A stretch of 62,158 nucleotides of DNA, filler included, from Platydemus manokwari (Eukaryota), in assembly GCA_037951405.1 (NCBI GenBank). It is 6 parts of 6 records of this genome, joined end to end, with 100 filler letters (N's around TTAATTAATTAA, not from the genome) between each part and the next. Parts side by side here need not be neighbours in the genome. Positions count along the whole stretch, not along the records: positions 1 to 11,599 come from JBBMOY010573329.1; 5 more parts are not named here. One strand, given 5' to 3'. Of this stretch, positions 805 to 32,004 are shown one piece after another; position 1 is the stretch's first letter, and every line of letters begins with the position of its first letter. A program made the position numbers and the translations under genes. The notes beneath the pieces were generated by a model that was not told the origin of the DNA, searched no databases, and saw only the letters and a list, made by a program, of their open reading frames with translations.

Positions 805-2269
805 CTTTCATATCTTTAGCGATAGATTGAAATTTATTTACCACGTTGTTATCAATTTGGTATGTTTCTGCATGTTCAATCTTAGATTCCGGTTCATTTA
901 ATTTTACACATCTTTGATCATCACCACTTTCATAAGAACTTAATAAAATTGATAATCACTTAATCTTTTCTTTAATCATTTACCTATACCTATTATCATC
1001 ACTGTCTCTAGATTTTTTATTTGGTTTTCTCTTTTTATTCTTTTTCTTAGATTTTTTCCTGTGTTTTTTATTAATAATTTTTTCTAATTTATTTGACATT
1101 TCGTTTGATGAAGCTGAGGATTCACTGGGTGATATTGAGTACGCATGAACTATATTGGGAGAAATTATATCTAGTAAAATTTGTGAATTAGTTTCTATAA
1201 TTTTTGGTTGCAGGTCATTCTTAGTTGAATCGATCGTTTCATTAATTAAAACTTCTTGAATAGAATGAGAACGTTTTAAGTCACGCCTTTCTGAAGACAA
1301 GCTCTTGGATCTGTTCATTCTATACTTGTGGACAGAGTCGTGCCCAATATCTTTGTTTGACGAAGTTTTATCTCTAGATTTTCTAGAAGAGTAGGAACTG
1401 TATGACCTTCTTCGACTGATATATCAAACATAAATTTATATTATATATGTACATAAACGAAACCTTTTAGATGAATATGATCGTGATCTTGATCTACTTC
1501 TAGACCCGCTTCTTGAATAGGATCTTGAATTTGAACGGGATCTATCTCTTCTTATTCTCCCTTGATGAGCTGGACTTAGTCTTGCTCTTCGCCAGCACCC
1601 CGTATTACGTGTATTAAACATTCGTCTTTGGAAATCTCTTTGACGACTGAAACTTCCTACTCCACGAAGTCCTCTGTTTCTAATATATCTACTGGGCCAC
1701 ATATAAACCCCATTGCGATTATATGCACTCTGACTTCTATTTAAGACATTCCATTCAACTGGACTACGTGAATCATTATTTCTTGTTGCTCGTTCTTCTT
1801 CAATCACTAGATTACTTTAATTCAATAACTAAAATGTTAAATAACTACATTGTTTTCTAGCCTTACGTAGATCTTTAAACCAAGAAACTTCGATATTGTG
1901 ACCAAGAATTTCCTTGTTATCAAAACTTAGCGAACGATGTGTCATTAAATAAACTTAAATAAAAATTTACTTCTCAATAACATCAACAGCTTTCTCATGT
2001 GATTCAAATCGTAAAGCAATAAACAGTTTTTTTCTGTCTTCCGAATAACTGAAGAAATCTATTTTGCAATTTTCTTTTGTCTCATTTTTGAAAAATGATC
2101 TTGAATTTTAAAAAGTAAATTTTGATGTCTACAAAAAATAAGTTTACCGCACATTTTCCATTGACATATTACTAGGGAAGCCCCTAATAAACACAGAATG
2201 TCGGCTAGGAGTCACCATTTTCGGGTCAACTCTATCGCTTGAACCATTTCCATTTTTAAATGTATTCAT
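805..2269 (-). CDS. RRM- and RS-domain (SR-like) RNA-binding protein, multi-exon; 3' end uncertain
   Basis: Manually spliced exons 2269-2148, 2099-1971, 1925-1849, 1806-1464, 1415-984 and 938-805, joined by phase-consistent GT-AG introns of ~42-48 nt. Protein: MNTFKNG...HSVFIRGFPSNMS (RNP2-like)...LFIALRFESHEKA (RNP1-like)...GHNIEVSWFKD, then RSRSNSRSYSRSGSRSRSRSRS and a Lys-rich basic tract. Confidence 0.8.
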
Positions 2270-3890: not shown

Positions 3891-3902
3891 CTCTTTTCAT
3901 TT

Positions 3903-5052
3903 TATCAATAACTGCCGAAACGCACCAATGAGTTAGCGGTGATGTATCAAGGGAAAATGGTATACATGCTGCCTGTTACAAGAATATTGACAGATGGGAA
4001 ATACAAACCCTAGGAAATCGATACGTGCTCTAACGCACTCTAGCCAATGTACGAAATTGGGAAAGATCAGTGGATAACGACACCAAATAGACGACTATCT
4101 GCAACGCCCAAGAAATTAAAATTATATGGGACATCAAGGAGAATAGAATTTCAAACAATAGCAAATATGGAAAAAAGCGGTCTATATTCACCACAAGATA
4201 TTGAACGGGCAAGAAAAGAATACAATTATGAGGCGATACTAAGTGTAGACCATTATAGGAAATCAGCAATGAATATACTGCAAGGGTTATGGGGACGATT
4301 CCAGGCCATAGGGAATTTCTTCTCATTCTTCTTAGGCATTTATTATGTGACAATGATGACCAAGATACTATTCTCCCAACTACTGTTCCATAAACAATTA
4401 GAAATTGTACACAAAGAGTTGGAAGACGGCTGCATGCCTCTGTCGAGTGTTGGCCAAACACTTAGCATGGAAAGAAATTCAAAGAAAAGTGACCGCAACA
4501 TAAGAAAGGCGCAAAGCAGGAATGCCAGATGCATATGTAATCCAACACCACCAATGTAATTGTTGTTGCCAACCGAAGCTACACGAAAATACACATTATA
4601 CAGGCAACTCACAGGAAGTCGCAGTAGACAGTGTAGAATAGACGATACACATAATCAAATCGGAAGTACCATTTGAGGAGTATAAAGCCAATCAGCTTAT
4701 TCACATAGAGCAATTAAACCCCCGAATTAAGCAAATGGAATGGGAACAAGGGAGAGCTAAAATGCAATCATTTACAAAGAAATACCAATATCTAAAAGAG
4801 CTTCACAGAAAACCGAAATGAGTCGAAAAAAAGGAATTGGAAAGTAATAGTGACAGTGACATTAAAATGGACGACACGAGAAAAATATATATACCATATA
4901 AGCAAGAAAATAAGCAAATGAGACAGCTCAAAGAGGAATTCGATTTGCCAAAACCATACACGAAAATTCAAAACAGAATAAATACCATACAAATTCAAAT
5001 TGTATTCACTCGTAACGATAAACGAAGAAAGGCTCGCACCAGAGCAGAATAA
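3903..5052 (+). pseudogene. C-terminal part of a chuvirus-glycoprotein/herpes gB-type (class III fusogen-like) env, with a long tail
   Basis: Frame-3 translation KRTNELAVMYQGKMVYMLPVTRILTD..EIDTCSNAL*PMYEIG..W..P..IEFQTIANMEKSGLYSPQDIERAR...LWGRFQAIGNFFSFFLGIYYVTMMTKILFSQLL follows the chuviral-G pattern CxxELPV..FLxPxTRIL..CxxLxPxMY..SGIY..WxxFxxFG-TM. After a frameshift near 4420 the tail runs with stops to 5052. Confidence 0.7.
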
Positions 5053-5065
5053 GAGGTTACAGTAT

Positions 5066-5760
5066 TCCTATCCGAAAAAGGTGCAAGATAATAAAACTTT
5101 ACCAGCACCTAAAACAATAAATGAAGCTAAAATATTCCTGGGTATGCTAGGATATTACAGACTATTTCAGTAAAACTACGCTAAAATAGCTGCACCGATC
5201 TACGACGCAATGAAAAAAGGCATGAAAACATGGAAAGAGAAAGGCGGAGAACGCAAAAAAGAAGGTGATGAGAGAGTTGGCAAAGGAACCAAAGCAGAAA
5301 CCCAATTGCCACTGAAGTGGGGAGACTCCCAACAAAAAGCATTTGAGTCATTAAAAGAGAATTTGATGAAGGGACCGATACTAAGATACCCAGGCATGAA
5401 ATAAACATTTATAGTGATGACCGACGCCATTGGAGGAGCGCTCGGAGCTGTAATGGCACAGCAAGACGAAGGTGAGAAAGATTGCGTAGTTGCATATGCC
5501 AGCAGAGTGTTAAAGAAAGCAGAGAAAAATTACTCAACCTTCGAAAGAGAATATTTAGCAATATTTTGGATTGTAAAAAAATTCAGGCAGTGTCTATTAG
5601 GAACGAAATTTCTAGTGCTCACCGTTAGAACGGGCACAGAAAAGCAACAATTTGTCAGGAAGAGCAACCAGATGGCAAATATTGTTACAAGATTACAATT
5701 TTACAATCAAACATAGATCAGGAAGATCTAATGCTAATGCCGATGCATTATCAAGATGGC
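5066..5760 (+). pseudogene. Gypsy pol: RT C-terminus/connection and RNase H
   Basis: PAPKTINEAKIFLGMLGYYR; LKWGDSQQKAFESLKENLMKGPILRYP; TDAIGGALGAVMAQ..VVAYASRVLKKAEKNYSTFEREYLAI; RWQILLQDYNFTIKHRSGRSNANADALSR. Confidence 0.95.
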
Positions 5761-6730
5761 CAGGACAAACCGATAACAATCAAATATTCGAAGTGAATGC
5801 AGTAGAGGTAATTGCCGAAATGTGCTCAGCCGCACTAGAAAAAGCTAATTTAAAAGAATATCAGAAGTTAGACGCTGAGATCAAATGGATGATAGAAGTA
5901 TTGAAACAAGAATCACCAAAAGCCCAAATAACCAACGAGCAGGGTAATGTTTTGAAATTAGATAAAATCACCCTGATGAACTACAAAATAAACAAAAGAA
6001 GGATTATTGATCAGAAAAAGAGATGATGGCCGTGAATTGATAGTAATGCCTAAGAAATATAGAGAACAAATTTTATACCAATACCACGATGGTGCTCTAG
6101 GAGGAGATCTGTCTAAGAGAAAAACAACGTATCCAACAGAAATATGATTGGCTAACTTTAACAGAGGATGTTAAAAACTAGAGCGAAAAGTGTACTATAT
6201 GCGCTATCAGAAAGAGCACAGGTCTTAGAACAAAAGTACCTTTAAAACCAATCGAGAAATCAAAAAGCAGAAACCGTTGCCAAATTATTTATTGAAAAAA
6301 TATTATTCAGATACGAGACGCCAGAGAAAATGCTCACAGACAGAGGAACCAACTTTCTCATTGAATTTATGCAAGAGTTAACGAGAATATTTAACATCGA
6401 GAAGTTGTGTACGACAGCATATCATTCACAAACCGATGGCCTAGTAGAGAGATTTAACAAAACTTATCAGTAGTTATTATCAGTAGTCTTAAACAAAAGC
6501 CAGAATGACTGGAAAGACTATATGAAGATATGCCTTTGGATATACAATAATGCTATCAATGATATAACAGGATACGAACCATATTTCCTCATGTATTGAA
6601 GAAGAGGAATAATGTTGGAAGACTTGAAATTCAGCCAGCCAAATGATGCGGCATATAAAGAAGACCCCACATAAGTTGATAAAATGAAAGGCAAAATTAT
6701 GGAAATATCGCTGGGGAAATGGACGCAAAA
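5761..6730 (+). pseudogene. Gypsy integrase (HHCC zinc domain and partly deleted DDE core)
   Basis: LIVMPKKYREQILYQYHDGALGG; CTICA; FRYETPEKMLTDRGTNF; TTAYHSQTDGLVERFNKT; TGYEPYFLMY. Confidence 0.9.
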
Positions 6731-6903
6731 TAGAAAAATTTGTATCCTATGGACGAATGGTGGTCCAAACTTATAGAATACACGGAAACCCCTAAAACGT
6801 TTTATTCGTAATATCGACAAGTCATAGCGCAATCTTAGATAGCATAGATTCACCACTGAAAGCTACAAGTTCAGACGATGGACAGGATAAGACTGAATCA
6901 AGA

Positions 6904-7824
6904 GTGGAATATGGGAAACAGGATAACAAATGCGGAAGCAGAGCCGCGGGAAAGTGGTCATTGTTTTTTACATGCTTTAAAAAGATCAGCGGGTTAAGAG
7001 CCAAAACGATATATACTTTAATAATGCACAGTAAATTAAAAGCAATTACAGTAAAATTAACGATATCAGATATACCAAAGGATGCCATATGAATAAGCGC
7101 AACCATCCATCATGTAATGATCACGTGGAGAGGAAGGATATCAACCGCCATACAAGCCATAATAACTATCAAAAAGCTCGATCAAATAATCACCACGGCA
7201 GACAGTGATGGGAACATACTCATCGAATGGGAAGGCGAAAAACTAATGCATCTCAAGATAAGTTATTTTAAATACGGTCGATTGGACGAGGTGCACTCAG
7301 AGAGTGTCACGATATATCAGCCAATGAATAAGCTCACTACATCGTCAAGAACCGAGATAGCCTCAACTGTTAATCAGACTACAAAGAGAAAACGAGCGAC
7401 AACAAAAGTAAACATAACTTCACCAATTGTAAATGCTTCAAAAGGGAATACAACTTCAATAATAATAAATGCCTCTTTAACCACCACTACTGATAGAAAT
7501 AATGAAATAATAAAATATTAAGTACCAGAATCAATATGGATAGAGAATCCGGACCAAAGAGATACTATAATCAATTGACATAAGTTGCATGAGAATGAGA
7601 GTATAGAAGAGACGACAAAAACTCATGCACAAAAACATGTAGAAAAAATAAGAAAACCTATATGACCTTATTATGTTATTTCAATGTCAGTAGCACCGAT
7701 AGCGGTGCTAGCTATTGCAACAGCATACGGAGTATACCATCATTACAAGGAAAGAACTATATTATTCAGATCTCAAATGTATCGATATCAGCCAGGTCGA
7801 TACACGTTAAGCACATCCGTATGA
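6904..7824 (+). pseudogene. Accessory type I membrane glycoprotein (beta-rich head, Thr-rich mucin-like stalk, TM, short tail) with 4 premature stops
   Basis: A single frame-1 reading links ORFs 6904-7092 and 7117-7521 and continues to TM YYVISMSVAPIAVLAIATAYGVY (~7669-7737) and tail HHYKERTILFRSQMYRYQPGRYTLSTSV*. N-glycosylation sequons NQT, NIT, NAS, NTT, NAS, NES. Confidence 0.6.
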
Positions 7825-8011
7825 CAATTACAGACAATAGTAGACGATTATTGGCGATCGATCTATTTGTCAAAAATTAAGCCAACCCTTAATATTAGTA
7901 ATAAATCTTTTAATAAGTTAATTAATAATAAAAATAAATGTATGAATGATTTGAAAATGCATGAGTTGGGGGTATTATTATTTATAAATCTTTTCTTAAT
8001 ATTTATATAGG

Positions 8012-9976
8012 ATGATGCCATGTATGAATGCTATTCACTAAAAATTGGGTCATTTACACAATTCAGCCATCAATATGACGTATGAACACGAAACACTGAG
8101 ATGGCAAAGCAATTTCTATCGAACCCTCCAAAGATCCGTCACAGCCGATAGCTTAGGACTGGCCTATCGGTATTATGCTGACGAGACAATCATCCCTAAC
8201 AAACTGAAAACCAATGAAGAAGAACGCATCATTCTTATTATAAAGATTACTGCACCAAGACGATATAATTTGAGTAGTATTTTTCCAATTATTCCCCAGG
8301 CCAATGGACAAGATGACAGAACTGTCACAATAGTGTATACGAATGAAAAATCAAAGTTTATGTTAAAGCAGGTGTTCGAAGAGACCGATTTTGAGTATGA
8401 ACAAATTATTATCCACGCCTGTACAACAGCAATTGAGATGAAGTGGAAGAATGAGAAGATAGAAATAGAACCATTTTCATCGGTTCACATATACTTAGAA
8501 GATGTAGAATATACAAGAACAAACTACAATCAAGTTAGAATTACGCTCACAGATTTGCCAACCATTATGATGATCTAGCAAATAAACAAGAATAGAAAGT
8601 CGTTAATGGAGTTTAGAACCCCAATAGTGTTTATCATTTCAATATGGTAAAAAAGGATTGGCATTCTGCAAGCAACCTCTGAGTAAATAGGAGGAGAAAC
8701 ATTATATCGTTTTCATGGATGCGAAGCTGGTTATTTATTACAATGGACGAAAACATCCAGTATGGGTATCGTTAAGAAAGTTTGACGGCCAAGTGATTTT
8801 GGAGAAAGAATCAGAAATCCCGCATTACAACTGCAATAAGAGTGGTTTAAGTGATGTCAATCTACGACACGCTTACGATGAAGAGGATGTTAAGGGATAA
8901 TTTAACCATTATTTGATGGGCAAAATAATGATTGGATTTGATCTGAAAGACAAAATTTCAGCGTTGGATATTATACCACAAGAATTAATGGGCATAAGAG
9001 ACCTAAAAGGATCAGAAACAATTGAGAGAATCACGGCAGACCAACAATTGGCAATGGATTTTAAAAGTATGTACTATAAATTATTTAATGAGAGATTTGG
9101 AGAGCATGAAAAGAGAAGTGAAATAATAGCCAACATTCGAATTTATGACTTAGTTAAAAATTTGTGGATTGGTAATAACGGAGACTGTGAGGAACAGCGA
9201 CTCACAAAAAGGAAAGAGAAAATGGATTTACAGGCACCACAATATTAATCTGGTCAGATCCAATGAAATTAGAAGAGGGGATACTAATTAAAGAAGGAGA
9301 AAACTCATAGATAATTCAGTCCATGGAGCAAAAAATCTTTGCGGAAAAGAGAGAAAAATTCTGGAAAAAGTATGTAAAGACAGTATACGAGAAAATGGGT
9401 CCGTTTGGCGAGAAACAAGTGCAACATGAAGTAAGTCAGACCACTCAGGAAGATATCCAGAATAGGAAAAATCAAATGTTCAAAAACATATTAGAGGCAA
9501 ATGAAACTCTAAATGAATTAATAATGGCTGAGAATGATGAAGTAGAACTGGAGCAAGAGATTTTTGATTCAATAGAAGATATTGAACAAAAAATCAACGA
9601 GATGTTGAAGCAAGAAAGGAAATGGTCAGGGGACTATTTGGAGCAGACGTTGGAAGAGAACAGGCAGAAGATCATAAAGATATCAAAGTTAAACCCAAAT
9701 GCGCTAGTGTTTATTCCAAAACCAGCAGCTATATGGGAAAGTGACATGGACAAGCCTGGTTACGAGCAGAATTTTATTGATATCGATCAATTAGACCCGT
9801 ACAACGAAAGTCTGATTAGAAATAGAAAAAGATCAGCAAGCTCGAAAATCATTGAGTCCCAGCCAGCAGAAAAGAAAGCCAAGACGCGTAGTTATAGACT
9901 GATAATCAAGAGAGTTGATTTGAATTTAAATCTGATCAGCTTTAAAGAACTCACTAGTTTTGGGAATACTAACTAA
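8012..9976 (+). pseudogene. Large accessory ORF X of unknown function (fragments 8045-8578, 8715-8900, 8913-9248, 9323-9976), with an acidic coiled-coil and a basic NLS-like C-terminus
   Basis: Four consecutive same-strand ORFs with the element's base composition, lying between an acceptor-like ttttcttaatatttatatag|G (8010) and the LTR. C-terminus RNRKRSAS..EKKAKTRS. Confidence 0.55.
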
Positions 9977-10105
9977 TAAGACCAAAACCCAACATAAAAT
10001 TTCGAATTTTATTTGTTTTATTTTTTTTCTGTCTATGTAAAAAATGTTGGGTTTTGAGAAAAAGAGATTATTTTGCATGCATATTTTAAGTGTATAAAAG
10101 TAGTC

Positions 10106-11206
10106 TGTTATTGCCAATTATATTTTTATTCTTTTTATTTTTTATCATTCCGGACAAGCTAATTAAATGAATTATTTATAAATAAAATAAGATTATTAAA
10201 GAATAAAACCGGTTAATTAACCCGAAATAGAAAAACCCTTTGAATTTTCGCATAACAACTAGAAAATAGCCCCGATAAAAAATACACCGATGCAAAAATA
10301 GCCCGCATAAAATAAGATCGAAAAATGAAAATCACCCGCATTATCTCGGCTGGTAACTAGAAATAATACCCCGAATAAAATAAATATTCTTTATTAAAGA
10401 ATAAAGAACATCAAATTTCGCCCGCATTAAAAAACTGACAACCCGCAATCAAAAATATTCAATCAGATTAAAATGAAAAGAGCCCTCATTTTAATCAAAA
10501 TTTACCATCAAATAAATCCAGTATAAATAGGCCCTTAAAGTCATTAAGCCTTCGCCCCCAATATTAGAAACCACAAGCGTAGAATGCCCGAACTAAGAAA
10601 ATCAAGTATTCGTTGCAGAGTTGAAGAAGTCGCAAACCATTATTCCCGTTGCCATTATATGCCCAGATTTATCTGGAAGAATAATTTTAACTATTGTTTG
10701 TCGATTCAATAGGAGATTGCGCAAGGGTAAAGTAAGATCAATAGGTGTAAAATCATCATTTATCTACACAATCGAAGACGCATATTCTTCCTATTTATAG
10801 GACTAAGTCCAAATACCTTTAACACCCGGTTCTACCTCTATTGGAGGATTGTTACCTTAGCTTGTCTGGAATTGTGTCATAATTGTTCCATCGTATTGAT
10901 ATATTTAACCATACTTGCTATAGTCTTATAAAAATAGTCAATTTTTATTGTAATTTGGTTAAACAATATAGTTTTAGTAGTCATACACCGAGTTACTTTT
11001 GATTTGACAAGTGTCCTAAGGAATCATTCATATTTTGATACAAATCATCATCATTGTCAAGTCATCACCTTTTTATAAAAGGGTACATAGAGAGGCGTGT
11101 AATATTAAAGTGAGACTGATCCCAATAAGCAATATCATTGAGCCGTTCATCTCGTCTTCATACGGTGATAGCAACGATCCAGGCGAAGGAAGATCAAATA
11201 ATAACA
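10106..11206 (+). mobile_element. 3' LTR (~1.1 kb) of the env-bearing element
   Basis: 7-bp terminal inverted repeat TGTTATT (10106) / AATAACA (11206), TATAAATAG at 10522, and position just after the last ORF. The PPT is not cleanly adjacent (AGAAAAAGAGA lies at 10057-10067). Confidence 0.65.
10301..10530 (+). promoter_or_regulatory. LTR U3 promoter: cluster of GCM-type RCCC(G/T)CAT sites and a TATA box
   Basis: GCCCGCAT 10301, ACCCGCAT 10334, GCCCGCAT 10420, GCCCTCAT 10482, near-match ACCCGCAA 10441, TATAAATAG 10522. Confidence 0.5.
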
Positions 11207-11213
11207 TAGGTTT

Positions 11214-11599
11214 AGTTGATACTTAGGGATCAATAGAACCACGAAGGGACTGATTAGACTCTGATATTGGACAATCAAAAAGTTATAATTAAGAGAGACT
11301 GATTGTAAAACAACAAGAAACAATAACCCCAAAATCGAACAAAGTTTTAAATTTAAATTTTTTTGTTTTTAAATATTCTTTTTATTCTTATATATATCTA
11401 TGCATATGTTGTATTTTAATGTGTCGGGTAAGGTCGGATTCCACAGTTAGCTTCAATGAAATTAAATGATGAAATAGTTAAGTTATAAGCACATTGCGTC
11501 ATAATATTTATTGAAAAATCTCCAATCAACCGCCAATCAATTATTTAAACAAACACCACGTGTTTATTTATTTAATCACGTTACTCGCCTCCTCTTAAG
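11214..11599 (-). mobile_element. 3' LTR (AGT...ACT termini, ~370 bp) and PPT of a Gypsy element cut off by the contig end (family B)
   Basis: Minus strand: PPT AAGAGGAGGCG, then AGTAAC (11585)...TCAACT (11214). Homologous to 28522-28899 (aaacaccacgtgttt, ataagcacatt, cgcct..tcttaag). Confidence 0.7.
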
Positions 11600-11699
11600 N
11601 NNNNNNNNNNNNNNNNNNNNNNNNNNNNNNNNNNNNNNNNNNNTTAATTAATTAANNNNNNNNNNNNNNNNNNNNNNNNNNNNNNNNNNNNNNNNNNNN
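11600..11699. other. Artificial contig-joining linker (N44-TTAATTAATTAA-N44)
   Basis: Identical 100-nt linkers also at 21448-21547, 32902-33001, 42380-42479 and 52993-53092. TTAATTAATTAA puts a stop codon in all six frames. Confidence 0.95.
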
Positions 11700-14600
11700 T
11701 AACATGTTGAAATGACTTTTATATATTGTTATGGTCTTGGGAAATTATAAAGTAAAATTTTAGTTCTCCAAAACAAATACTCACAAAAGATAAAAAAAAC
11801 AGAAAATAGTCTTATTTCATTGGGAGTTTATGCTCAAATTTCTCTATGAATGGAAGCTTTGAAATGAATCACTTAATACTACAAATTATCCCTATTTTTG
11901 TCGTATACCATAGCAGAAACGATCAAATAATTCATGATAAATTTTGTCCATGATAAATATTTAGTCAATAGTACAGGACCTGCTAATTAACTGAAGCTTT
12001 TTGAACTTCAATTTGTATTTGTATGAACTGTCCTTTTAAGATATATTTTGATATATCTGTGTTTTTAAGAAGCTGTGTATTTATATGAAAGCGAACTTTT
12101 ACGCAAAGAAAAATGTCTAATAAGCAGTTCATATTTTAATACTTATAATTTCGTTCAAATTAAAACCAGCTGTAAAGTTGGCTAACAATTACTATTACAA
12201 TAAGCCGATTTGTAGAATAAAATCTAATTTAAATATATTTAAATCTGATTTCTGACGTTGTTAGATTATTTAAAATATAATTATTAAGAAGGCTGATTCA
12301 ATTATTTAAGGAAATAGCATGTTAAATCGCAATGCATAAAAAATTATTTTCATTGATAGGGTCTTGGAAAGCAATAATAAATAAGGGAACTATTATCATT
12401 TAAATTCAGAACGAAATACTATAATCTATGCAGAAATAAAAGACTCAAATCACTGAAATTGGAATATTAAGTTTGATAATAATTCATTTTGAATAGTTAA
12501 CATAAAGGATGTATTTATATTAATCATATGAAATCATAACTGCTTCTATTTTAATATAAATATTTCATTTAATACGATTTTTTTTATCCTAATATTCAAA
12601 CAAGTTTTTCAAAACAATTTTAAAATTAAAATTTTTTTTAGTGATAGTAAAATATATATATTCAATATTTTAAAATTTATTTTTAATAATATGTCAATCC
12701 TTATATAAAATTTGTAATAATTAATAGACTTATTTAACGGAAACTACTGTGTTTCATTTTTTGATAAATAAACTAGTGTAGCATGAGAAAATGGTTTTAA
12801 TAGTTTGGTGAAACAACATAATTGAATTTGTCATTTGGAAGAAGCAATAAAATTTATTAATTCCATTTGTCTTTGGTTTTCTATTTATAAAAACACGAAA
12901 TCACCTATTTAATACACTTTGTTAATCACACAATATTAATTAGAATCCCAATATTGTAAATGGTTATTATTAATTAATTTGGCTCTTGTTATTATCATAA
13001 TAATTAACAAATTAAATGATAATAATTATCATCACTGTAGAGCAAAAATGTTGTGATATAACAGACAAACTAAAGTTAATTACATTTAATTAACTAGCAG
13101 CATCACATTTCATCTACATGATAACGTTTAGAAATAAAAAATCAAAACAAACGAATACTCTGTAAATATTAGAAACCTAAGATTTGATTGATTACAAGTC
13201 TAAGCAAATAAAATATTATCCATTAACAAAAAACTTCACTTTTTAATATTTTGAATTTATTGCTTTGTAGTTTTTCAGTTATATTAACAATAATTGATTG
13301 TAACTTTCTCACAAAAACGTTCAAATCGATGAAGTTGATTGTAAAATAACTGAAACTCAATTCGCTAACAAATAGATTACTGTATAATTCCAGTACCTAA
13401 GTCATTCTTTTGATAATTCTTTCTACTAAATCTTAATATTAGTTTTTAAACATGCCTTTGATCATTTCCTTCATTATTATATTTAGATGTATCTTTTCTT
13501 ATTTATTTATTTATTAGAAGAAATCTTGAATTATTTTGAAAGAATTCATTGAATGAATACTCAAATTCACTCACTGGGTGTCTTTATTAGTCTGGCATCT
13601 TCATTATGCATCACCGTGTTCAAATTTTCCGAGATCAGATATTATTCTGTCTTCTCAAGTCAAATGTAGAACCACAGTATGAAAAAATATCAAAATATTA
13701 TTTAATGTCCACATAATTTAAACAACTTGTCGCTCCACATTTAATTTTCTTATAATAAATAAAGACTAAAATAAAATAATAGTCATCTTGTCTTGGTTTA
13801 GCAACTATTATAAAAGATCCTAAATCGGTCCTTCATATGTCTCGGTACATAGATATAGACGTAAAGAGATTTTTGAGGATAGCTTTTCTTTTATATCTCA
13901 GCATGAAATCAATAAACAAAATATATTGTTTGAGAATAATATCTTTAATGGTAAATAACAACATAACTGAATTGTAAAAGATCATAATATAATAATAACT
14001 GGTAATAAACAGAACCGGAAGAGAACAAAAGTTCCTCAATTAAAGTTGTTTCTTTGAATACTTAGGAAAAACGCGTAAATCTCTAAACAACTGATTATAA
14101 TTTCATTAGTAATTAATACGTTTGAAAGGAATAAATAAATTACTCTACTCGTAAATTTTCTTTGGTTTGAGAAATTGTTTTTCATAGCATAAGTCACTCT
14201 TGTTTAAATCGCCCATCGCATATATCTGAATTCATTGTTATGAATCTTAATTCAGTTAGAACATGAACTTTTAAATTCTAATAACACTGTTGATGTTAAT
14301 ATTGAAATATTTTTGGAATAATTTATGCTTAGGATCAGCAGATTTAGTTTGTCCAAGGAACATATCGATTTTCAAGTCTAGGAATTATATGTTTAATGTG
14401 ATGTCTACCCCTACCTCCTTCTCTTTCTCTACCAATCTCTCTACATATAACCTAATCTAAATTATATATAAATAAAACGTTATATAAAAATAATAATGTA
14501 TAAATTATATATTAAATATATTATATGAACTAATTTCTGTAAATGATAAAATGTAATTTTTATTTCATAATGAATAATAATAATTTTCAGGACACAATCA

Positions 14601-15209
14601 AATCTATTCAAATCATAATTTATAACTCAAGCTTATTGAATTATTTAATTTTTGCTCTACTAAACAGCGCGACTGATAATTTCCATGGCACGTGTTACCT
14701 ACGTACATATTTAATTACTTTGACAACAAATAAATACTTCCGTCTTATCTCCAGTGTAATAAATATAAATTTTAATAATAAAACTGGAAAACAATATTGT
14801 CGACTCGTTGATAATTATTAAAATGTGATGGAATTACAAAATAATAACTCATTAGTTTTATATAATATCATTGAATATTACCACTGCTAAAATGAACAAA
14901 TGATGTTTGATGCTTCACGTATAATGGCTGATGAAATGACAAAATAGTATCAGTTTGAATTCTCTTACCACTTAAATTTTTTAGATTCCGACAAGTTGCT
15001 AAACTTAAATTGGCTTTGTTGGAAAAAATTGAGAGTATGACAAACCTGGTGCTTGGAGATGATTACTAAACTTTGTTGAAGTTGAGATCACAAGATTAGT
15101 CGAAAAATAATAGTTAGTGCATCTTATATAGGTGAGAGATTGAAAATAAAGAGACAAGGCTCTAAATGGTCTGATTGAATTCCAAATTCTACCTCTGGTG
15201 TAAATGAGG

Positions 15210-15791
15210 TGTTGGGTAGATCACAAATGAACCAAAAAGGTTACAGAAACAAATGAAATAACACTAAAATGGGTAGACACACATGTCCCGTCAACCAATC
15301 AGATTCGTTTTAATATAAAATCATATTTAGGAGCTAAAAATTGACAGGCACATATCTACAAATGGCAGCAAACTCAAATATCTGCCAATAGAATAAGAGA
15401 CCCGAGAAAAATTTTAAACAGACCGATCTACGAATGAATTCAGGAAATCGAAATCTCAGACTCGTGACATCAAGCAGACACATCCCATGTGTCTATAAAG
15501 GAGATTGAATCCCATGAGTAACTACCTGTCTTGTTTGGTCGGTAATCTTTTTGGTTGCTTTCTGTTCTCTGTTTGACTTTCACTTTTTATTAATGACTTG
15601 TGAACTGTATCAGTTTATAAATCGAGCTTGTGATATTGTAATTTAAATGATTATTTTCAGGTTTTTTCAGTTAATACCAAACATAATGTTAGAATATTTT
15701 CCTTTTGAATTTCTTTTAATATTTTAATTTATTTAATTTTACCTTTGTTATTGATTGCATTTATTAAATGTACATTTCGGCCGTGAGAACA
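15210..15791 (+). mobile_element. LTR (family A), diverged copy of 2620-3223
   Basis: TGTTG...AACA termini and shared internal blocks with 2620-3223; preceded by purine-rich aaatgagg. Confidence 0.6.
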
Positions 15792-17281
15792 ATTATAACT
15801 TGAAAATACTGGTCTTAAGAAAGGTCTATTGGTTTTGAGTAACTTATAATAAATTGATTTTCCAAACAAGTTGATATTTGAATTCATCCTGTCCTCATGT
15901 CTCAAAAACTTAGGTGGGATTTCGAATTACATAAATGTTTAACCTTTATGTGTTGGTTTCTTTCATCAGTTTACCTTATTCTCTGATAATTTTTGATCAT
16001 TTTAATGAACTATTATTATAATTCATAAAACCATAAAATCAAGTGTCAATCATCTAAAATGTGTTTGGTTTATTATAATGAATGCAGAATAATTTACATT
16101 ACCACTTCGTATAACATACAAGCTGTTGACTGGAAAGTAAAATTCAAAAAATAATCATGTGAGTACTTAGTTAAATAGAAAAAAAAATTCATCTAAAAGC
16201 ATTTTTAACATCAATTTTTCCCAATTTGTAATTAATAAAAGTAAGATCTATCACATTCGTAAACACGCACAGAACTATTTAATGAAACGGATTTTCAAAC
16301 AATTTTTAATGGATCATTTAATTTATTTGTGTCGATCTCATTTTTAAATCCAATTTCAATTATGAAATAATCCGATAACAATTTTTCGTTTGATAATTTT
16401 GTCCTCAAGCACTTATCAGTCTGCACGATCTCGAATATTAGATGTGTTAATTTTTTCAGAAACTCGCAATATGATATCATTAATTAAATATCGAGGAATT
16501 ACGATAAATTTTGTTAATTAGTTATATAAACCGCAGTTACAGTTGATTATGTCAACAAAATTTCTAACTATATTTAATAAAATTCAATTTTGAATGATTA
16601 ATTTTTTAAAATAATAAATATTTCAAAAATTGATTTTATATGAACTTTTTCATGAACTTTAAATTGAATTTAAAAAATCGGTTAATAAAAGAATTAGAAT
16701 TAAAATTGAAAATGTGTATTACTAGGTTGAAATTCAATTGATTTTGCTTTTGAAACGAAAAAGTCAAAGCTATTACAGGAGATATTTAAAATTTCGAAGA
16801 AAAGTATGCAAATTTCATAGAGTTCCTTCGGTACTTTACTGTACTTCAGAAAGGTGTAGAGAATAAAGAGGATTCTAAAAATCAATCATTTTTCAAGGTC
16901 ATATACATATACTGAAAGTAAATTATTCCACGATCCAAACTTCGAATTAATAAATTTAACTGACTAACCAGATGAATGACCAAAACACTTCCAGAAACTG
17001 TCTAGCATCTTCACTGAATAATAAGAATCTATAGAAACTCTTTAATTTTCTTATTTAATGAAAAAAACTAAATCATCTCTATTCAATCGCGCACCAAAAA
17101 CAGAATATATTTGATAATCACTATCAACTATTTTCAGTCTCGAATCTGTTTCTGTTTTCAGTTAGGCTAAACCAACTGTGTCAAAATTTATAGCTACAAT
17201 AGTTTTGGGATTTTATTTGATATGGCATGATTAGAAATTATATTATTTTTTCAATGATAGTTGAACTTTATTTTATACATC

Positions 17282-17797
17282 TGTTAAGTGAGACGAAATA
17301 TTACAAAAAAAAACGGATTTGCATCTTGGAATCCTTGTTTGAGCACTTTAAACATTTTTATGCCGACACAACAGTGCAAGCATAGTAATCAATCAGTTAT
17401 AGCGGAATTAGATGGAAAACAACAATTAGAAAAAGAGCATAGCCACAAAACACACACATATAAGGTTTGACCAGTCCCACACATACAAAAATCAGTAAAC
17501 CCAATAGGAATATGGAAAAGTGAAGATAAAATCAAAGAATGATACAAACATGACACAAAATTTACACACAGATCTCCAGTATAAATACCGATGTAAAGAT
17601 GACTAATTGCCAGTTGAAAGCCAAGTTTTGGTTACGCTTTTTGAGACATTGTATTAAACTTGTGAGCCGTACTGAGTAGTACAGGTCTAACTTGTAAATC
17701 GATTTTGATTGTATTTGTGTTATTTTGTGAATCATACTGATTAGTACGCGAATTGAAAATAGCTTATAGCCTTCTTGTTCTAAATCGAGACCCAACA
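17282..17797 (+). mobile_element. Solo LTR with 4-bp target-site duplication
   Basis: TGTT...AACA termini, CATC on both sides (17278-17281 and 17798-17801), internal TATAAATA at ~17580. Confidence 0.7.
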
Positions 17798-18916
17798 CAT
17801 CTTCATCAAATAAAGCAGCATTTCATGTAGCATTTCTTTATTTAATCATTTTCCCAGTGATTCTATCACACCGGCCTCACCAAATTATTGGTTTCGAAAT
17901 AGATTTAATAAGTGCAATCCTATCGGAACTTCAAATAAAAAGTAAGAATTTATTACTGTTTAAATTATTTATTCATATCATAATTTTAGAAAATAACTTA
18001 ATATTAGCTAATAAAATATCAGTTAAAAATAATATCAACAATTAAATAAAAATTTACAAAAATTAGATTGTTTTTGGGTAATTAAGCAAGTGTCTATGTT
18101 TGCGCCAGTGTTGAAAATTACCAAATAATTTTCTGAGGGATACATTTCGATCATTGATTACTTCTATTCCTATTACGACTACCACTACAATAATATGGCT
18201 GCATACACGAATGTTAAACAGAATGAGTTAGATTGGTTCAAGTATCACGCTAAGAAGAAAAAGGAAAACTTTAACAAAACTATGCTTTATTATTATTTTT
18301 TCTTCAATTTCAATATAATCACATTGTCTGTACCAAAATTGGTTAAACACATTAACTATTATCATAAATTACTTATGTTAATGAAACTTTCGAATTCCTA
18401 ACTTTTAGTAAATTCAACCAATAAAATCATTATCGAATAAGCCAAATTAAAAAAGCCAATAATTAACAAAAATACAGTTTATCAAATTCATTTACAAATT
18501 AAAGCAAAAAAGCATTCCAAAAAAGATTAAAATAGAATTAGTAGCCGTTTGCATTACCCATGTCTGAAACAGATTAAACTCAATTAAATATTTCTTTAGA
18601 TTAATATTAAAAAATAGTTTATAAATATCATATTGGAGAAAAAATATTTCGAATCAGTTTCAGAGAAATATTGTTCTGCTTATTAAGATCAAAACAATCT
18701 TTATAAATATCTTTTGATTTTTATGCAAATATCTTTTGTTCCAGTTTTTGTGTACCAAATGTCTTTTTAATAAAATAATGTCGGAAATGAGCGGTTTTAT
18801 TATTTTATGTATCGGTCTATGAATATATTCATATAAGATAATAGAATATCAAAATTTTGCATCTTTTCGTTGGAATAATTATTATTCAGTAAATTTAAAA
18901 CTCAAATGAATATTGT

Positions 18917-19030
18917 AAGTCGCTACTATTTTATAAAACACACATCGAAAACGAACTGAAAAGGCACGACACCGAATTATATATTTAAATACAATTATTT
19001 AAGCAAATTAATATAATTTTAAATAAAATA
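18917..19030 (+). repeat. Dispersed ~110-bp repeat, probably a DNA-transposon terminus (other copies 55120-55228 minus, 58699-58800 plus)
   Basis: Shared sharp end TAAG(C/T)CGCTACTATTTTATAAAA, then ..CATCGAAAACGAACTGAAAAG..AATACAATTATTTAA (more diverged in the 55 kb copy). Confidence 0.7.
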
Positions 19031-19066
19031 AATCTTTAAAAAATAATCCAATTAAAATTTCTCAAG

Positions 19067-20794
19067 TCAATAATACAAGATCTCTATAAATCGGTTTACC
19101 TGTACACCAAATAATATAATTTAAATAATATTAAATTAATATTATTTAAATTATCAAAGGTTTAATCAATAAATTAAGTATTAATTACCGAAGCTTTAGA
19201 TCCCGATACTATTTTCAATAAATTTCCAGGGCATTTAATGGAAACTTTGTAGTAGTTATCAACTAATACCGTAGCAGTATTTTGTGATGGACAAGTAAGT
19301 GATTCTGATCCGATAGAAATTTTAACTTGTGACAGCTTAGGATTATATGAATACTAAGTAATTATAATTTTTTGATAAAGTTATAGAGCAATAAAATACC
19401 CTCTGACATGATGCGCCATAATATAAATCTCCACTATCATTTTCTACATTATTTTCAAAACATAAAGAATCTGGCCCATAATATGAAGGGACAATGTTGT
19501 ATCGACCTGGATCTAAAATTGATTTTTAATTACTTACAAATTTTAAACATAAACTTATTTGCAAAATAAATGATAAAATAAAAATACAACGCTTAAATAA
19601 ATTTAACATGTATATAATATTAAAATTACACTTAATCTGAAAAGTAAATTTATTTGTTCATTATCAAAGTCTGTTATTTTTCAAATAAATTCACAAAAAA
19701 TGAGTGATCGAAATTAATTTCATAGATATGTAATTCTAAACACGATTACTTTATTTATTTAATGAAATAATCCTTTGTTAAATTCGAGATTTTAACTCTA
19801 AAGTTGAGACAATATTGGTTAAGTCAAATGAAATAAAGAAAACGTCTGTAATGCACCATATAATCATAACCTCGACAATGAATGTATTATTTCCAACTCT
19901 ATTCCTTTTCACGAAGCTTGAAAAAGAAATAAAATAAAAAAAGTTATTTCCTTGTTATAAGCAGGAAAATTAATTGATTCTAGTAATAAAAAATAAATCG
20001 ATCCGGAAAACATATTATCATATGAAATTGTAATTTAATTGACTTTGCAACATTTATAAATATTTATTATTGCTTCAGAAGTTTGCATTTAAAATGACAA
20101 ATGGAAAATAAGGATTATTTGTTTTTGCAAATGCTGTCAATCATGTTGTTGTGGTATTAAGATTGCGAGACAACATCCTGTGAACTTGATAAAAAATTTA
20201 TGGAATGGAAATATATAATTATAAATCTTAATAAATTACATTGTAAGTATTTCATACTTTTATTGTTCTTACGGATTTATTTTTGCAAAGATTAAACGCA
20301 AAATATGTGTTTGTGCATGTGTGTGTATTACGAGAAACAAATTTTGCTATGTAGCAGGTGTAATAAGAATGAGGTTAAAGTATTGATCGATTCTAGAGAT
20401 GTCAATTCATGTTGGTATGAAAGAATTTATGATTTTATAATTTTAAAATAATTACTTGAGAATAAAACAGATAATGTTAGTCACAGTTGTCGAAGTCAAG
20501 AATATTTCGAAAAAGAAATTGAGAAATTATATCAAAATTACCAACTTTTAATAATCCTCACTCTGCTAATGGTTGTTAGATTATTTAGTCAGAAATAAAT
20601 ACAGATTAGTTTGTAAAGGAATTTGATTTTTCGAGAAAATATTTTGAAATTTCAAATCGTATGTAAAAAATATTTGAGATAAATAATGAAGTATGTCAGA
20701 AAATGGTAATGAATAATAAACATAATTATCTCGACTTACCCATAAGACCGTTATTACTAACATCATTGCAAATTGAATTTGGCCTCGTGAACAC
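19067..20794 (-). CDS. 3' exons of a leishmanolysin/invadolysin-like (peptidase M8) gene; catalytic part not in this contig
   Basis: Phase-consistent exons 20794-20740, 19512-19400, 19353-19189 and a possible last exon 19099-19067 give VFTRPNSICNDVSNNGLMDPGRYNIVPSYYGPDSLCFE...GASCQRYSY...VKISIGSESLTCPSQ...VSIKCPG. This fits the M8 C-terminal pattern YGxxSxCF..C..C..IxCP. Not in the ORF track. Confidence 0.65.
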
Positions 20795-23203
20795 CTAAAT
20801 GATTATAATAGATTAGTAAGAACAATGACTATAACTAATTATATTATATTATTAATATTATTAAAAATTACATTTAATCATTATTTTACCCTATGAATTA
20901 TTAGGGTATTAAAGAAATTGCATCATTGAAAATTAGGTTTAATTTATAAAATAAATTTCTGCTTTCTACATAAGAAAGCAGGTGAAGGGAATTTTAATTT
21001 AATAATAGTTTATAGACTTTGAATGATTTTAAAAAATTGATAAAATAAATAAATTCTTTCTTTTTGCAAGATGGGTTGATTCAGACTCAATTTTAAAAAA
21101 AAAACTTAATCTTAAAATGTTCTTTGTAGATGTCCGGTTATAATTCACAAGCATCTTTAACAAAATAAAACAAAATTACTTGATCTAAAAAGCCCTTAAA
21201 TGAAAAATTAAGATAAATATTTTCATTAAGTTCTGGCTCATTACTAACTATGGTTTTTTATATTAATAATGTTCTGGATTTGATGAAGGAAGTTGTTTCT
21301 GATTGAATTGTAACAAATCTTATTGTCAATATTTAATGGCACTATTTTTGAAAATATCATTTGAATGTATTTAATAAAATATATTTTATTTTCTTTCAAT
21401 ATTCTAGGAATTAAAAAGTCGTGAATTTCATTTGGATTTTCATTTTANNNNNNNNNNNNNNNNNNNNNNNNNNNNNNNNNNNNNNNNNNNNTTAATTAAT
21501 TAANNNNNNNNNNNNNNNNNNNNNNNNNNNNNNNNNNNNNNNNNNNNTTACAGAAAAATAATCATAATGGTGTGGATAATTTTTCTGAAAATCAATAATA
21601 ATAATAAATGAAAATAAATTTCTGAAGACATCAAGAATCAGTTACAAAAAAAAGCACAGAAGATCTGAGTATATAAAATGATATCATCATATTGTCATGG
21701 ATAGCACATAATTATGGGAGCTATGTATAAAATTAAATAATAATGAAATAATAATCACAATAAAAAATTACTATCATTAATGTTAATGATTAAAGCACAA
21801 TATTTTGCTGAAACCAGTTTTTTTTATTGTTTTATAACGCTAAACGATAATTAATGTGCAGAAATTATTTATTTAATAATGAAACCGTTCGTAAAAAGGA
21901 TTATCAGAAATTCAAAAATCATAACTTTATTTTTAAAAGGATCTATGTGAAACACGTCATTGATTATATCGGATAACTCATCTAATAGTCACACTACAAT
22001 GACCTAGAAGATGTAAACGTGTATACTACATTGTATGTGTGTGTGTTGCAGAACAAGAACTCGATAAGTCTTGGTTCCATTTGAGATACGAGATACAATC
22101 AATGCAAATTTCAATAATAATATATATGTGAATTGTTTTTGTCAAATTGTAGACGGCGTACAGAATTGATTGACCACAATAAATTAATCATGACATTTCT
22201 AATATCAATTGATTCATGCCAACATGACAAAATGTCTATATCAATGTATCACATGAAGCGATGCAATATACTACACAATTGTAACAGATCTAATAACAAT
22301 ATCTCTATTTTTCTTTATTGATGTCTGTGGTTGTAAAATATTTCTGTCCTGTACAGAATGAACACAACGTTGAGAATATTATCAGTTAATATATATAAAT
22401 CGTATTCAATCTTATTATTTTGGTCGAGACATTTTTCATTGAACTATTGTAGATAGTTGGTGTGAAAAATTTTCTGAAATGAATTTTGATTTGTGTTGGA
22501 AGAAGCAAAATTGGTTTTCAGTTGGTTGACAACCTTTCTCTAAGCTTGAATCATCCTTAAAAAATCCACTTAGACCCGAAACATATAGATTAATTATGGA
22601 AACTGTTGAAATGTTCTAATTATTGATAACCAAAATACAATCCCATAAATAAGACTGAGCACTTTTCAAATCATAATTGACATTCAGATATGACGTTAGA
22701 TACATTCCAAATAATCAGTCATTACAATTTCATAACTTAAAATGATTATTATTGTAGCCATATTAGTGCGGATATTTCTACTCTATTCAATTGCTTCGAT
22801 TAAAATCATCAATAAAGTCAATCCTCGGAATCAGTGTTCATTCGGTTAGAGCAATACACACTCACTGCACACACACATGAAATGACTGATGAGATAAACT
22901 GAATGAAAGTCATTGTCTATCAGTAATGTTGTCAGCAACCAATATAAATAATAATTTCACTTTAATTTGGAAACCACCACATATATTATCAATTTTAAAT
23001 CCAAACTTTAATCGTTCATAACATCTAAATTGTAGATATTTTCAAAATCCTTAATGTCGAAATCGTCTTGTCATCAGATTGGTGTACATAATAATTTATT
23101 TTAAATATTGATTATAATAATCAATTATTAATTCATTTAATTAAAAATATTTATTCATAGGTTATTTTTTATTAAAATTATTAATTAAAATAAATTAATA
23201 TAC

Positions 23204-23755
23204 TTCAACTGGAAAACCACCAGACCGTTGATAAAGAGAAAAATTTTCTTGTCTCTTTTGTATTTCTTCTATCCGAGTTTCTAAAAACGGGTCTTCATGA
23301 CCTTTAAAAGTCTCGCAGTCATAAATTATATAATGCCTATTTCCATTAATCCACTGATGGACAGGAAAGAAAAAATATTCCCAATATCCTCTCAAACCGT
23401 GTCTTCGGTCTCGAATAATAATTTTTTCCATATACCAATCATGAGGTATTATATTTTCATTTGCTCTCCAAAATTCAATGTGCTCCAACTTATTGAAATT
23501 CTACAAAAAATTTTAAGACTGTTATATTTAAGGGATTTATACTCTAATTTTGCACCAAGGTTTATTTTCAATCGAAAATTTTGCCTGAATTTTATCATCC
23601 TCTGGTTGAATTAAATTAGTATAAGATAATGTCGGAGACTGGCGTTGCTGTTCATCAAATAAAACCATAAATATCGCTGGTTGATCTTCTACTTCTTTAA
23701 AGTCACCAGAAACTATACATATTTCAAATGCGATTTTGGACTTATTACTACCCAT
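23204..23755 (-). CDS. Lipoxygenase N-terminal PLAT/LH2 domain, exons 1-2 (rest of gene not found in this contig)
   Basis: Exons 23755-23543 and 23500-23204, with a 42-nt phase-0 intron. Motifs FEICIVSGD, DWYMEKIIIRD, FFPVHQWI, DPFLETRIEEIQKRQENF..GFPVE are typical of the animal LOX PLAT domain and linker. Confidence 0.8.
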
Positions 23756-24749
23756 TTTTAAATATACATATAGTTAAAATATAGAAAATAATAAAATAAA
23801 TTTTCAAAATAACTGAATCAAAATAAAGAAAATATAATATTTCCTTAAAGACTTTCGAATTTTAAAAGTTTATACAAACAGTTATTTAAACTATTTATAT
23901 TATTTAAATAATTAATTTATAAATTTGTGATTTGGAAAATATTTCATAATGAATCAATAATTGTTATTTTGATATCATCTAAATATAGTTAGTTTTTATT
24001 AATTAGTGTATGTGCTAATTCACAAAAATTAATTAATGAAAATTTTAGATTTTATTTAACTACTTATCAAATTTATAAGTTTCATTCAAAGTTCGAATTG
24101 AAAATTAGTGTTATCAAATATATCAAATATATCCAAAAGATAATAATATTTATATCAAAAAAGCTTCCCATACAATATTTGTCAGAATCAAAAATTTCAA
24201 AAAAAATAATGAAGTTTATTTTTCCATTTTTTTTATTTAAGGACACTGTAGGATCATATGTTGTATGAGGGATCCAGAATTTGTATATGCACAGTACATT
24301 CACTGGAAGACATTTACGTCATAGGAAGATTAAGTAAGATCTAATAATTGTAAAATAATATATAATTTATAAAAAACCACAAATAATTATTATTTATAGG
24401 GTTTGATCCCCTCCGTGATATCTTGTTTTATTTCTCTTTAGAGTTTATCAACCATTTCTTATTAATTGTGTATAAAATATTCTACGTTTATGTGTATAAA
24501 CGTAATTCTAAAGCCTAATTTTTATTAAGTGTATATAAATATTTGAGTAATTTTTATTAGATGTATAACTGTATTTGATGTTATAATAATAAAAGTATGT
24601 TTAAATCATAAGGTTGCTGTAATATTGAATCGGCTAGTCCCATAAGGTTCCACAATCATTTCCACAAATAATATCATAAAAATCATCTCATCACCTTTTT
24701 TTGCAAGATACAGTTAAGGTAATTAAAAGTTAAAAGATATAAAATCAAT

Positions 24750-31740: not shown

Positions 31741-32004
31741 GTGAGTGACGATGATCACGTCGGGCTCACCAATTTGTGGAGATTTGGTATCTCGAGGATT
31801 GAGCAATTTTAAGCAATCTGAATTCAAAGGATTGGGCATACTAGCACTTACTACTAGCACGTTTATTGATTTATATGACAGATATACAAGCTGAATAACT
31901 GTTGCATAATCAGCGTACGAGCTGGATAATTAGATTACAAGAGTTTCTAGAAGACCAGATTCGATACCTATCCCTAAAGATGATGAGTATTGTCGGTGCC
32001 GCCT

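What the first reader, a model, noticed from the sequence alone, without database searches (positions are those of the whole stretch)
6904..7824. Hidden second membrane protein: mucin-like stalk, TM and PDZ-ligand-like C-terminus
Seen: reading through four stops in one frame gives a hydrophobic N-terminal stretch, a ~100-aa beta-strand-like head, a Thr/Ser-rich stalk with N-glycan sequons, a ~23-aa TM and a Tyr-containing tail ending -STSV*. Known: S/T-x-V-COOH is the class I PDZ-binding consensus. Inference: this is a viral attachment, superinfection-exclusion or immune-evasion protein, or a captured host receptor. The ORF track hides it by calling a different frame at 7662.
Basis: partly seen in the sequence, partly recalled or inferred. 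Interest (0 to 1): 0.72.

Follow-up and report, generated by a model that had tools for sequence, protein, structure and literature searches.

The report
Retrotransposon's orphan second membrane protein
A broken copy of a virus-like jumping gene carries, besides a fusion-protein gene, a second gene of no known family whose sister copies show the mark of past selection; it is predicted to encode a stalked cell-surface glycoprotein that likely helped the element's particles stick to cells, but nobody has tested this.

Summary
The frame is real. 6904-7821 has 4 stops in 306 codons, against about 21 expected, and about as many as the neighbouring pol. In sister contigs 26 of 36 counted differences fall on third codon positions, 11 of 13 in the membrane helix and tail. 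It was therefore a selected gene of a multi-copy element and is dead in this copy. The element is a Ty3/gypsy type with a gB/chuvirus-like fusogen upstream of pol, a known layout, plus extra downstream frames. The helix and the Ser/Thr, N-glycan-site-rich stalk are confirmed. The N-terminal hydrophobic stretch is not: the frame starts further upstream (about 6688) and has no clear signal peptide. The stalk lacks the prolines of a true mucin. The PDZ reading is unproven: I could not see whether sisters keep the stop after STSV, and the frame stays open for 61 more codons. No homologue or fold was found, 1.84 billion proteins included. Best guess: an accessory type I surface glycoprotein working beside the fusogen in attachment. 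Interesting as an orphan, but mechanism untested.

The parts
3900..4559 (+). C-terminal remnant of a gB/chuvirus-like class III fusion glycoprotein gene (env), upstream of pol; broken (4 stops in this frame)
   Evidence: Pfam PF24664 Monjiviricetes_fusion E=5.3e-19, 68 bits against a cut-off of 27, residues 10-110 of the frame; stop count
5072..5704 (+). End of RT and RNase H of pol; gag, protease and most of RT were not found in the frames scanned
   Evidence: PF17919 E=3.3e-32, PF17917 E=1.6e-24; tblastn of related pols
5992..6668 (+). Integrase: zinc finger (frameshifted) and core; no C-terminal domain recognised
   Evidence: PF17921 E=0.002-0.003, below cut-off; 16 relatives at 35-44% identity; their alignments end at or before 6668
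6688..7824 (+). ORF X, the finding, extended upstream: decayed single-pass membrane-protein gene of no known family; true start not identified
   Evidence: 1 stop in 6688-7089; 4 stops in 6904-7821; third-position bias in sister contigs
7009..7335 (+). Best-conserved part of the predicted ectodomain ('head'); fold unknown
   Evidence: 14 of 21 sister differences at third positions, P=0.002; no family or fold
7324..7659 (+). Ser/Thr- and N-glycan-site-rich polar stalk, with a basic KRKR cluster at 7384-7395 (a possible proprotein-convertase site, inferred)
   Evidence: S+T 34% and Pro 1.5% in residues 141-205; six N-x-S/T sites in residues 157-231
7666..7734 (+). Predicted transmembrane helix
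   Evidence: KD 19-mer 1.85, GES 1.78; 8 of 10 sister differences at third positions
7735..7824 (+). Predicted cytoplasmic tail of about 29 aa ending STSV and a stop (class I PDZ-ligand-like; consensus recalled)
   Evidence: 3 of 3 listed sister differences at third positions; state of the stop codon in sisters not visible
7825..8010 (+). Same frame stays open for 61 codons. It includes an 11% GC stretch with three AATAAA (7891-7956) and a Met-led hydrophobic segment (7957-8007) that looks like the leader of ORF Y
   Evidence: KD 11-mer 3.05
8042..8578 (+). ORF Y, a second orphan accessory frame
   Evidence: no homologue; weak VAPB MSP-domain lead E=0.2-0.9
8688..9248 (+). Further decayed frame, DEDD/REX4-exonuclease-like by eye only (motifs recalled)
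   Evidence: 3 stops in 187 codons; no significant Pfam, NCBIfam or PDB match; one unannotated PHROG at E=0.002
9230..9976 (+). ORF Z, acidic, with a PAM2 (poly(A)-binding-protein-interacting) motif at about 9683-9721
   Evidence: PF07145 E=0.007 on the whole frame; 20.4 bits against a cut-off of 20 after narrowing to 33 aa

Best explanation
ORF X is a decayed accessory gene of a multi-copy, envelope-bearing Ty3/gypsy element; it is predicted to encode a type I membrane glycoprotein that likely sat on the producer cell and particle membrane and likely helped attachment to target cells while the separate gB-like protein did the fusing. Shown: the frame, its place behind the integrase on the element's strand, its selection in sister copies, one hydrophobic helix, the stalk composition. 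Inferred: entry into the secretory pathway (no signal peptide is seen; the true 5' end may be lost in this copy near 6700), glycosylation, display of a head on a glycosylated stalk, possible shedding at the KRKR site, sorting of the tail by a PDZ scaffold, and the attachment role itself. That role is argued from anatomy and from the division of labour in herpesviruses and paramyxoviruses (recalled). This copy is dead.
For: Stops: 4 of 306 codons against a null mean of 21.4, like pol and env (2 of 211, 3 of 157, 4 of 220). Sister contigs of run X1: 29 of the 40 shown differences (143 in all) lie at third positions; 26 of 36 after dropping 2 in stop codons and 2 beside a compensating indel pair (P=2e-6). 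Integrase control 8 of 10. A crude nonsilent/silent ratio is 0.19 of neutral in this frame and 1.5 and 3.4 in the other two + frames (34 sites). High-depth sister contigs differ within 2 of the 4 internal stop codons, so those stops are not shared by them. Same strand and purine-rich composition as env and pol across 4000-10000. The element already has a class III fusogen, and X is too large for a FAST/sORF2 fusogen (PMC11952523, passages), so a non-fusogenic surface role fits best.
Against: No homologue, family or fold: 0 hits in 1.84 billion representatives, 0 of 541 word-index candidates, no meaningful Pfam, NCBIfam or PHROG match, no related locus in viral or metagenome contigs. The function therefore rests on anatomy alone. 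No signal peptide: the best in-frame 11-mer before the head scores 1.39. No listed sister contig was seen to bridge the integrase and ORF X, so their linkage in other copies is inferred. The env control for third-position bias failed (5 of 12); I suspect a frameshift there but did not test it. Only 40 of 143 difference rows were visible, from one run. The class III fusogens of rhabdoviruses and baculoviruses bind cells unaided (recalled), so a partner is not required.
Confidence: 0.45

Rival explanations
1. Same gene and topology, but it acts in the cell that carries the element: it occupies or down-regulates a receptor (superinfection exclusion), shields the surface with glycans, or rewires junction and polarity scaffolds through a PDZ-binding tail.
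For: The tail is under selection like the rest (3 of 3 listed differences at third positions). S/T-x-V is rare before stops (41 of 6884). Precedent: the HTLV-1 Env tail binds hDlg1 (PMC3395148, passages). Neighbouring accessory frames look host-directed (PAM2 motif).
Against: No binding data. The terminal stop was not seen in sisters, and there is no canonical tyrosine sorting motif. The anatomy does not separate this from an attachment role.
Confidence: 0.25
2. STSV is not a C-terminus. The stop at 7822-7824 is a fifth decay stop, and X and Y form one precursor (head-stalk-helix-loop-internal signal-Y).
For: The frame is open for 61 more codons and ends in a hydrophobic leader-like segment just before ORF Y. 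Stop-free runs of 62 or more codons are 33 of 2952, and of 44 or more 88 of 2952, in window 10201-29000. Planarian Burro elements join many domains in one polyprotein (PMC6431247, passages).
Against: Sister differences after the stop show no third-position excess (4 of 9). GC falls to 11% at 7891-7956, with three AATAAA, as in a spacer. The S-x-V end would then be chance.
Confidence: 0.2
3. X is the C-terminal extension of the Pol polyprotein, anchoring it or a cleaved product in a membrane, rather than a separate gene.
For: The X frame becomes nearly stop-free at 6688, about 20 nt after the last integrase alignment (6668). It has no signal peptide and only two in-frame ATGs before 7100.
Against: X is in another frame than the integrase core. 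The usual integrase C-terminal domain is not recognised, and one contig joins 6709 to 6741 with unknown letters between (table 5), which fits a deletion in this copy. N-glycan sites make sense only in the lumen.
Confidence: 0.15
4. X is a captured fragment of a host receptor or adhesion gene (for example with a fibronectin type III head), carried along without a role.
For: The best PDB match of the head is a fibronectin-III module over 25 residues (E=0.19). Retroelements of rotifers and planarians capture host genes.
Against: Profiles of 148 and 142 bacterial fibronectin-III domains score the head no better than shuffles (50% and 100% of 1000 shuffles as high; hhalign probability 0.3%), though animal domains could not be fetched. 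Pfam fn3 does not match. Purifying selection argues against passive carriage.
Confidence: 0.08
5. A chance reading of decayed, A-rich DNA.
For: No homologue anywhere; A-rich DNA favours Asn, Thr and Lys and thus glycan-site look-alikes.
Against: Stop depletion P=0.001 and third-position bias P=2e-6.
Confidence: 0.02

Closest known systems
GAG-ENV-POL errantiviruses with HSV/gB-type Env in Nematoda, Bryozoa and Platyhelminthes (Chary and Hayashi, PMC13524379; I read the abstract, the first part of sections 5 and 6, section 8 and search passages; supplements not seen)
   Same: gB-type env upstream of a Ty3/gypsy-order pol (RT-RH-IN).
   Different: In the parts read, the paper describes three ORFs only; 'accessory' and 'additional open' occur 0 times in the main text. 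Here at least three or four further frames follow pol, one with a membrane helix. No gag and no LTRs were found in this copy.
Burro/GYPSM1 giant gypsy elements of planarians (review PMC6431247, passages; the original paper was not held)
   Same: Env between gag and pol with similarity to mononegavirus fusion proteins; many accessory domains and ORFs.
   Different: The listed Burro extras are MATH, BIR, BCL2, ankyrin, SUMO-like and dUTPase domains, largely inside one polyprotein; no stalked single-pass protein is named in the passages read. Kinship of the pols was not tested.
ORF3 types of bdelloid rotifer LTR retrotransposons: small TM ORFs, DEDDy exonuclease, GDSL esterase (PMC5408684, passages)
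   Same: Extra ORFs downstream of pol, including orphan transmembrane proteins and exonucleases.
   Different: There the 210-230 aa TM ORFs stand in place of a canonical env and some have two helices with cysteines. Here a longer single-pass protein sits in addition to a fusogen.
sORF2/FAST-like proteins of MDG1-group retrotransposons (PMC11952523, passages)
   Same: Accessory single-pass membrane protein of a Ty3/gypsy element, at times downstream of pol.
   Different: Those are 63-107 aa with an ectodomain of about 30 residues and a myristoylation motif, in elements without env; X has at least 250 residues before its helix.
HTLV-1 Env cytoplasmic PDZ-binding motif (PMC3395148, passages)
   Same: Retroviral membrane-protein tail engaging a PDZ scaffold (hDlg1), the model for the STSV idea.
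   Different: That motif is on the fusogen itself and was tested; here it is a sequence match on an accessory protein of uncertain end.

Membership tests
Ty3/gypsy (Metaviridae-type) retroelement | pol order RT-RH-IN | tested here: met
   RT end and RNase H at 5072-5704 precede the integrase at 5992-6668
Ty3/gypsy (Metaviridae-type) retroelement | Long terminal repeats, PBS, gag | tested here: inconclusive
   No flanking repeat found; no gag match in the frames scanned. The copy is truncated or decayed.
Ty3/gypsy (Metaviridae-type) retroelement | Placement in an RT phylogeny | not tested
   Most of RT was not found in this copy
GAG-ENV-POL errantivirus (gB-type) | gB-type fusion glycoprotein upstream of pol, same strand | tested here: met
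   PF24664 68 bits against a cut-off of 27 in the frame 3900-4559
Type I membrane glycoprotein (ORF X) | One transmembrane helix near the C-terminus | tested here: met
   KD 19-mer 1.85 at 7666-7734; no other segment above 1.0 in the printed windows. Hydropathy only; no dedicated predictor was available.
Type I membrane glycoprotein (ORF X) | N-terminal signal peptide | tested here: inconclusive
   None seen in frame from 6688 on, but the true 5' end may be missing in this copy
Mucin-like (PTS) domain | Pro/Thr/Ser-rich low-complexity stalk | tested here: not met
   S+T 34% but Pro 1.5%; better described as S/T- and N-glycan-site-rich
Class I PDZ ligand | S/T-x-V at the free C-terminus | tested here: inconclusive
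   Motif present before a stop; conservation of that stop not visible; frame open 61 codons beyond
Class I PDZ ligand | Binding to a PDZ domain | not testable with these tools
   Needs a binding assay
FAST/sORF2-like fusogen | 63-200 aa, ectodomain of about 30 residues, N-myristoylation | tested here: not met
   At least 250 residues precede the helix (criteria)
Fibronectin type III domain | Profile or structural match over about 90 aa | tested here: inconclusive
   25-residue PDB lead E=0.19; bacterial profiles and Pfam negative; animal profile and a reliable model not available

The most novel reading that the evidence does not exclude
An invertebrate Ty3/gypsy errantivirus with a complex-virus gene set: a gB-type fusogen before pol, and after pol a dedicated attachment glycoprotein of a new family with a PDZ-sorted tail, a second secreted or membrane protein, and RNA-directed accessories (exonuclease-like frame, PAM2 protein). 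That would be a two-protein entry machine in a retrotransposon.
Probability: 0.2. Interest if true: 0.72.

Novelty: new variant of a known kind. Interest (0 to 1): 0.42.

Why it matters
Envelope-bearing Ty3/gypsy elements are widespread in invertebrates, but how they pick target cells is largely unknown, and the survey read here annotates gag, pol and env only. A selected second membrane protein beside a gB-type fusogen would point to split attachment and fusion, or to host-surface manipulation, in these elements. It would also add an orphan protein family that ORF callers miss in decayed copies. For now it is one dead copy with sister fragments from one run and no fold.

Tried and rejected
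No whole genome is held, so copies could be compared only through Logan contigs of one run; no RNA holder was listed. Stretches with little sister cover (about 7310-7640, most of the stalk) say nothing either way. Homology searches for X were blank; one search gave Period_C E=0.15 and an E=0.78 match, both taken as chance; plasmid tblastn gave one E=8 match. No Atlas result was obtained for X or Y. Single-sequence AlphaFold models had pLDDT 31.6 and 35.2, and the viral Foldseek search had no match at E<=0.001. X and Y as paralogues: rejected (BLASTP E=1.4; 19% of shuffles score as high). Chromodomain at 6850-6930, seen by eye: no Pfam support. A signal peptide in another frame at 6930-6977 (KD 11-mer 1.82): set aside, since that frame is stop-rich and the two listed sister differences there cannot decide. 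Fibronectin-III head: profile tests negative. MSP/VAP domain in Y: could not be tested; no MSP sequences came from viral contigs or 201 bacterial genomes (where nothing rang, controls included). Troyka elements: not relevant (PMC12440569, parts 1-2 of 5). LTR search negative. Literature searches for a stalked or mucin-like second membrane protein in a gypsy element listed no such description. The one paper holding all terms (PMC10309623, passages) uses 'mucin-like' for a host gene. Subscription papers, such as the nematode ERV paper cited, were not held.

Full report
What is there. The other five frames have 13-34 stops over the same DNA. Markov shuffles give a mean of 21.4, and 0.1% of 2000 reach four or fewer in any frame. 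The decay is like that of the neighbouring RNase H (2 of 211 codons), integrase (3 of 157) and env (4 of 220). The frame has one membrane-grade helix (7666-7734), a polar stretch with 34% Ser+Thr but 1.5% Pro, five N-x-S/T sites within 33 residues plus one more, and a basic KRKR cluster. It has no signal-peptide-grade N-terminus, and 6904 is only the first GTG: the frame has a single stop between 6688 and 7089, against eight in each other + frame.

Setting. The window is eukaryotic, AT-rich and intron-bearing by eye. An unchecked note of this scan calls the host a probable flatworm (e1-8642850); I did not test that. From about 3900 to 10000 the + strand is purine-rich. It carries, in order: the tail of a gB/chuvirus-like fusion glycoprotein (PF24664, E=5e-19), an unassigned frame, the end of RT with RNase H, the integrase, then ORF X, ORF Y (8042-8578), a frame that looks exonuclease-like by eye only (8688-9248), and ORF Z with a PAM2 motif. 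Env before pol is the GAG-ENV-POL layout reported for nematode, bryozoan and flatworm errantiviruses (PMC13524379, section 5) and for planarian Burro elements (PMC6431247). Gag, protease, most of RT, the integrase C-terminal domain and LTRs were not found, so this copy is deleted and dead.

Was X a gene? One public run holds the DNA. On 6900-7900, 27 contigs were laid. Those identical to the window have depth 11-17, and diverged ones reach about 340-440. The tool warns that depth is no copy number; I read this only as a multi-copy family. Of 143 difference rows 40 were shown, and 29 of these fall on third codon positions of the X frame. After dropping two inside stop codons and two beside a compensating indel pair, the count is 26 of 36 (P=2e-6): head 14 of 21, helix and tail 11 of 13. 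The integrase control gives 8 of 10. The env control gives only 5 of 12, a failure I did not resolve. With the two sites upstream of 7009 also left out, 34 sites give about 22.5 silent changes against 9 expected, a crude nonsilent/silent ratio of 0.19; the other two + frames give 1.5 and 3.4. High-depth contigs differ within the first and fourth internal stop codons, so those stops are not shared by them; the other two were not covered by such contigs. X was therefore a protein gene under purifying selection, and the ORF called at 7662 is the wrong frame.

Is STSV the end? Not settled. For: S/T-x-V precedes only 41 of 6884 stops in the window; GC falls to 11% at 7891-7956 with three AATAAA; sister differences beyond the stop show no codon bias (4 of 9). 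Against: the frame stays open for 61 codons and ends in a strongly hydrophobic Met-led segment just before ORF Y, while runs of 62 or more codons are 33 of 2952 elsewhere in the window. The contigs that cover the stop appear to have it too near their ends for a difference to be listed. I put about 0.75 on a true end and about 0.3 on real PDZ binding.

What family? None found. HMMER over 1.84 billion representatives gave 0 hits, the word-index search 0 of 541 candidates, and Pfam, NCBIfam, PHROGs, PDB, viral and metagenome contigs nothing significant. Single-sequence models were unusable. A 25-residue likeness to a fibronectin-III module (E=0.19) was tested with profiles of bacterial domains and failed; animal domains could not be fetched, so it stays open but unsupported. 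X and Y are not detectably related.

How it likely works. Shown: a selected, single-helix frame on an env-bearing element. Inferred: a type I glycoprotein whose head is lifted on a glycosylated stalk, at the surface of producer cells and in the particle membrane. As the element already has a class III fusogen and X is far larger than FAST/sORF2 fusogens, I favour an attachment or tropism partner (0.45 for the whole statement) over a producer-cell role such as interference or scaffold binding (0.25). Two structural rivals overlap with these: an X-Y precursor (0.2) and a Pol extension (0.15). Passive carriage of a host fragment (0.08) and chance (0.02) are unlikely.

Against what is known. The element type is known, and so are extra ORFs after pol, including orphan membrane proteins and exonucleases in rotifers (PMC5408684) and CERV in Cer1 (PMC10309623). 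In the passages read, a survey of chuvirus-type glycoproteins in arthropods found gypsy fragments beside them but no clear capture by gypsy elements (PMC10084718). Seven searches listed no description of a second, stalked membrane protein beside a gB-type env. The supplements of PMC13524379, which tabulate the elements, were not opened and may bear on this; subscription papers were not searchable. The scan's index had no like DNA.

Verdict. Observation partly confirmed, interpretation partly supported. A real, orphan accessory membrane-protein gene in a known kind of element: new variant of a known kind, interest 0.42.

Noticed in passing
[not shown]
   Followed up: partly
window 8042-8578 (+), leader-like segment 7957-8007: Orphan ORF Y. 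A recurring weak PDB match is the VAPB MSP domain (E=0.2-0.9, two short shared motifs), below significance; Pfam Motile_Sperm did not match.
   Followed up: partly
window 8688-9248 (+): Decayed frame resembling REX4/ISG20-type DEDD exonucleases by eye; no library confirms it.
   Followed up: partly
window 4561-5100 (+): Unassigned, mostly open frame between env and the end of RT; no Pfam or NCBIfam match.
   Followed up: partly
window 29000-33000 (-): A second, different decayed gypsy-like element with gag (CCHC knuckles), protease, RNase H and integrase remnants, read by eye.
   Followed up: no
window 45000-46900 (+) and 900-2200 (-): Intron-bearing host genes, by eye an IWS1-like factor and an SR-type RNA-binding protein (names recalled).
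   Followed up: no
window 11600, 21448, 28006, 32902, 42380, 45143, 52993: Runs of N (603 in all), several as two 44-base runs around a 12-base island; assembly gaps or masking that create false repeat families.
   Followed up: no
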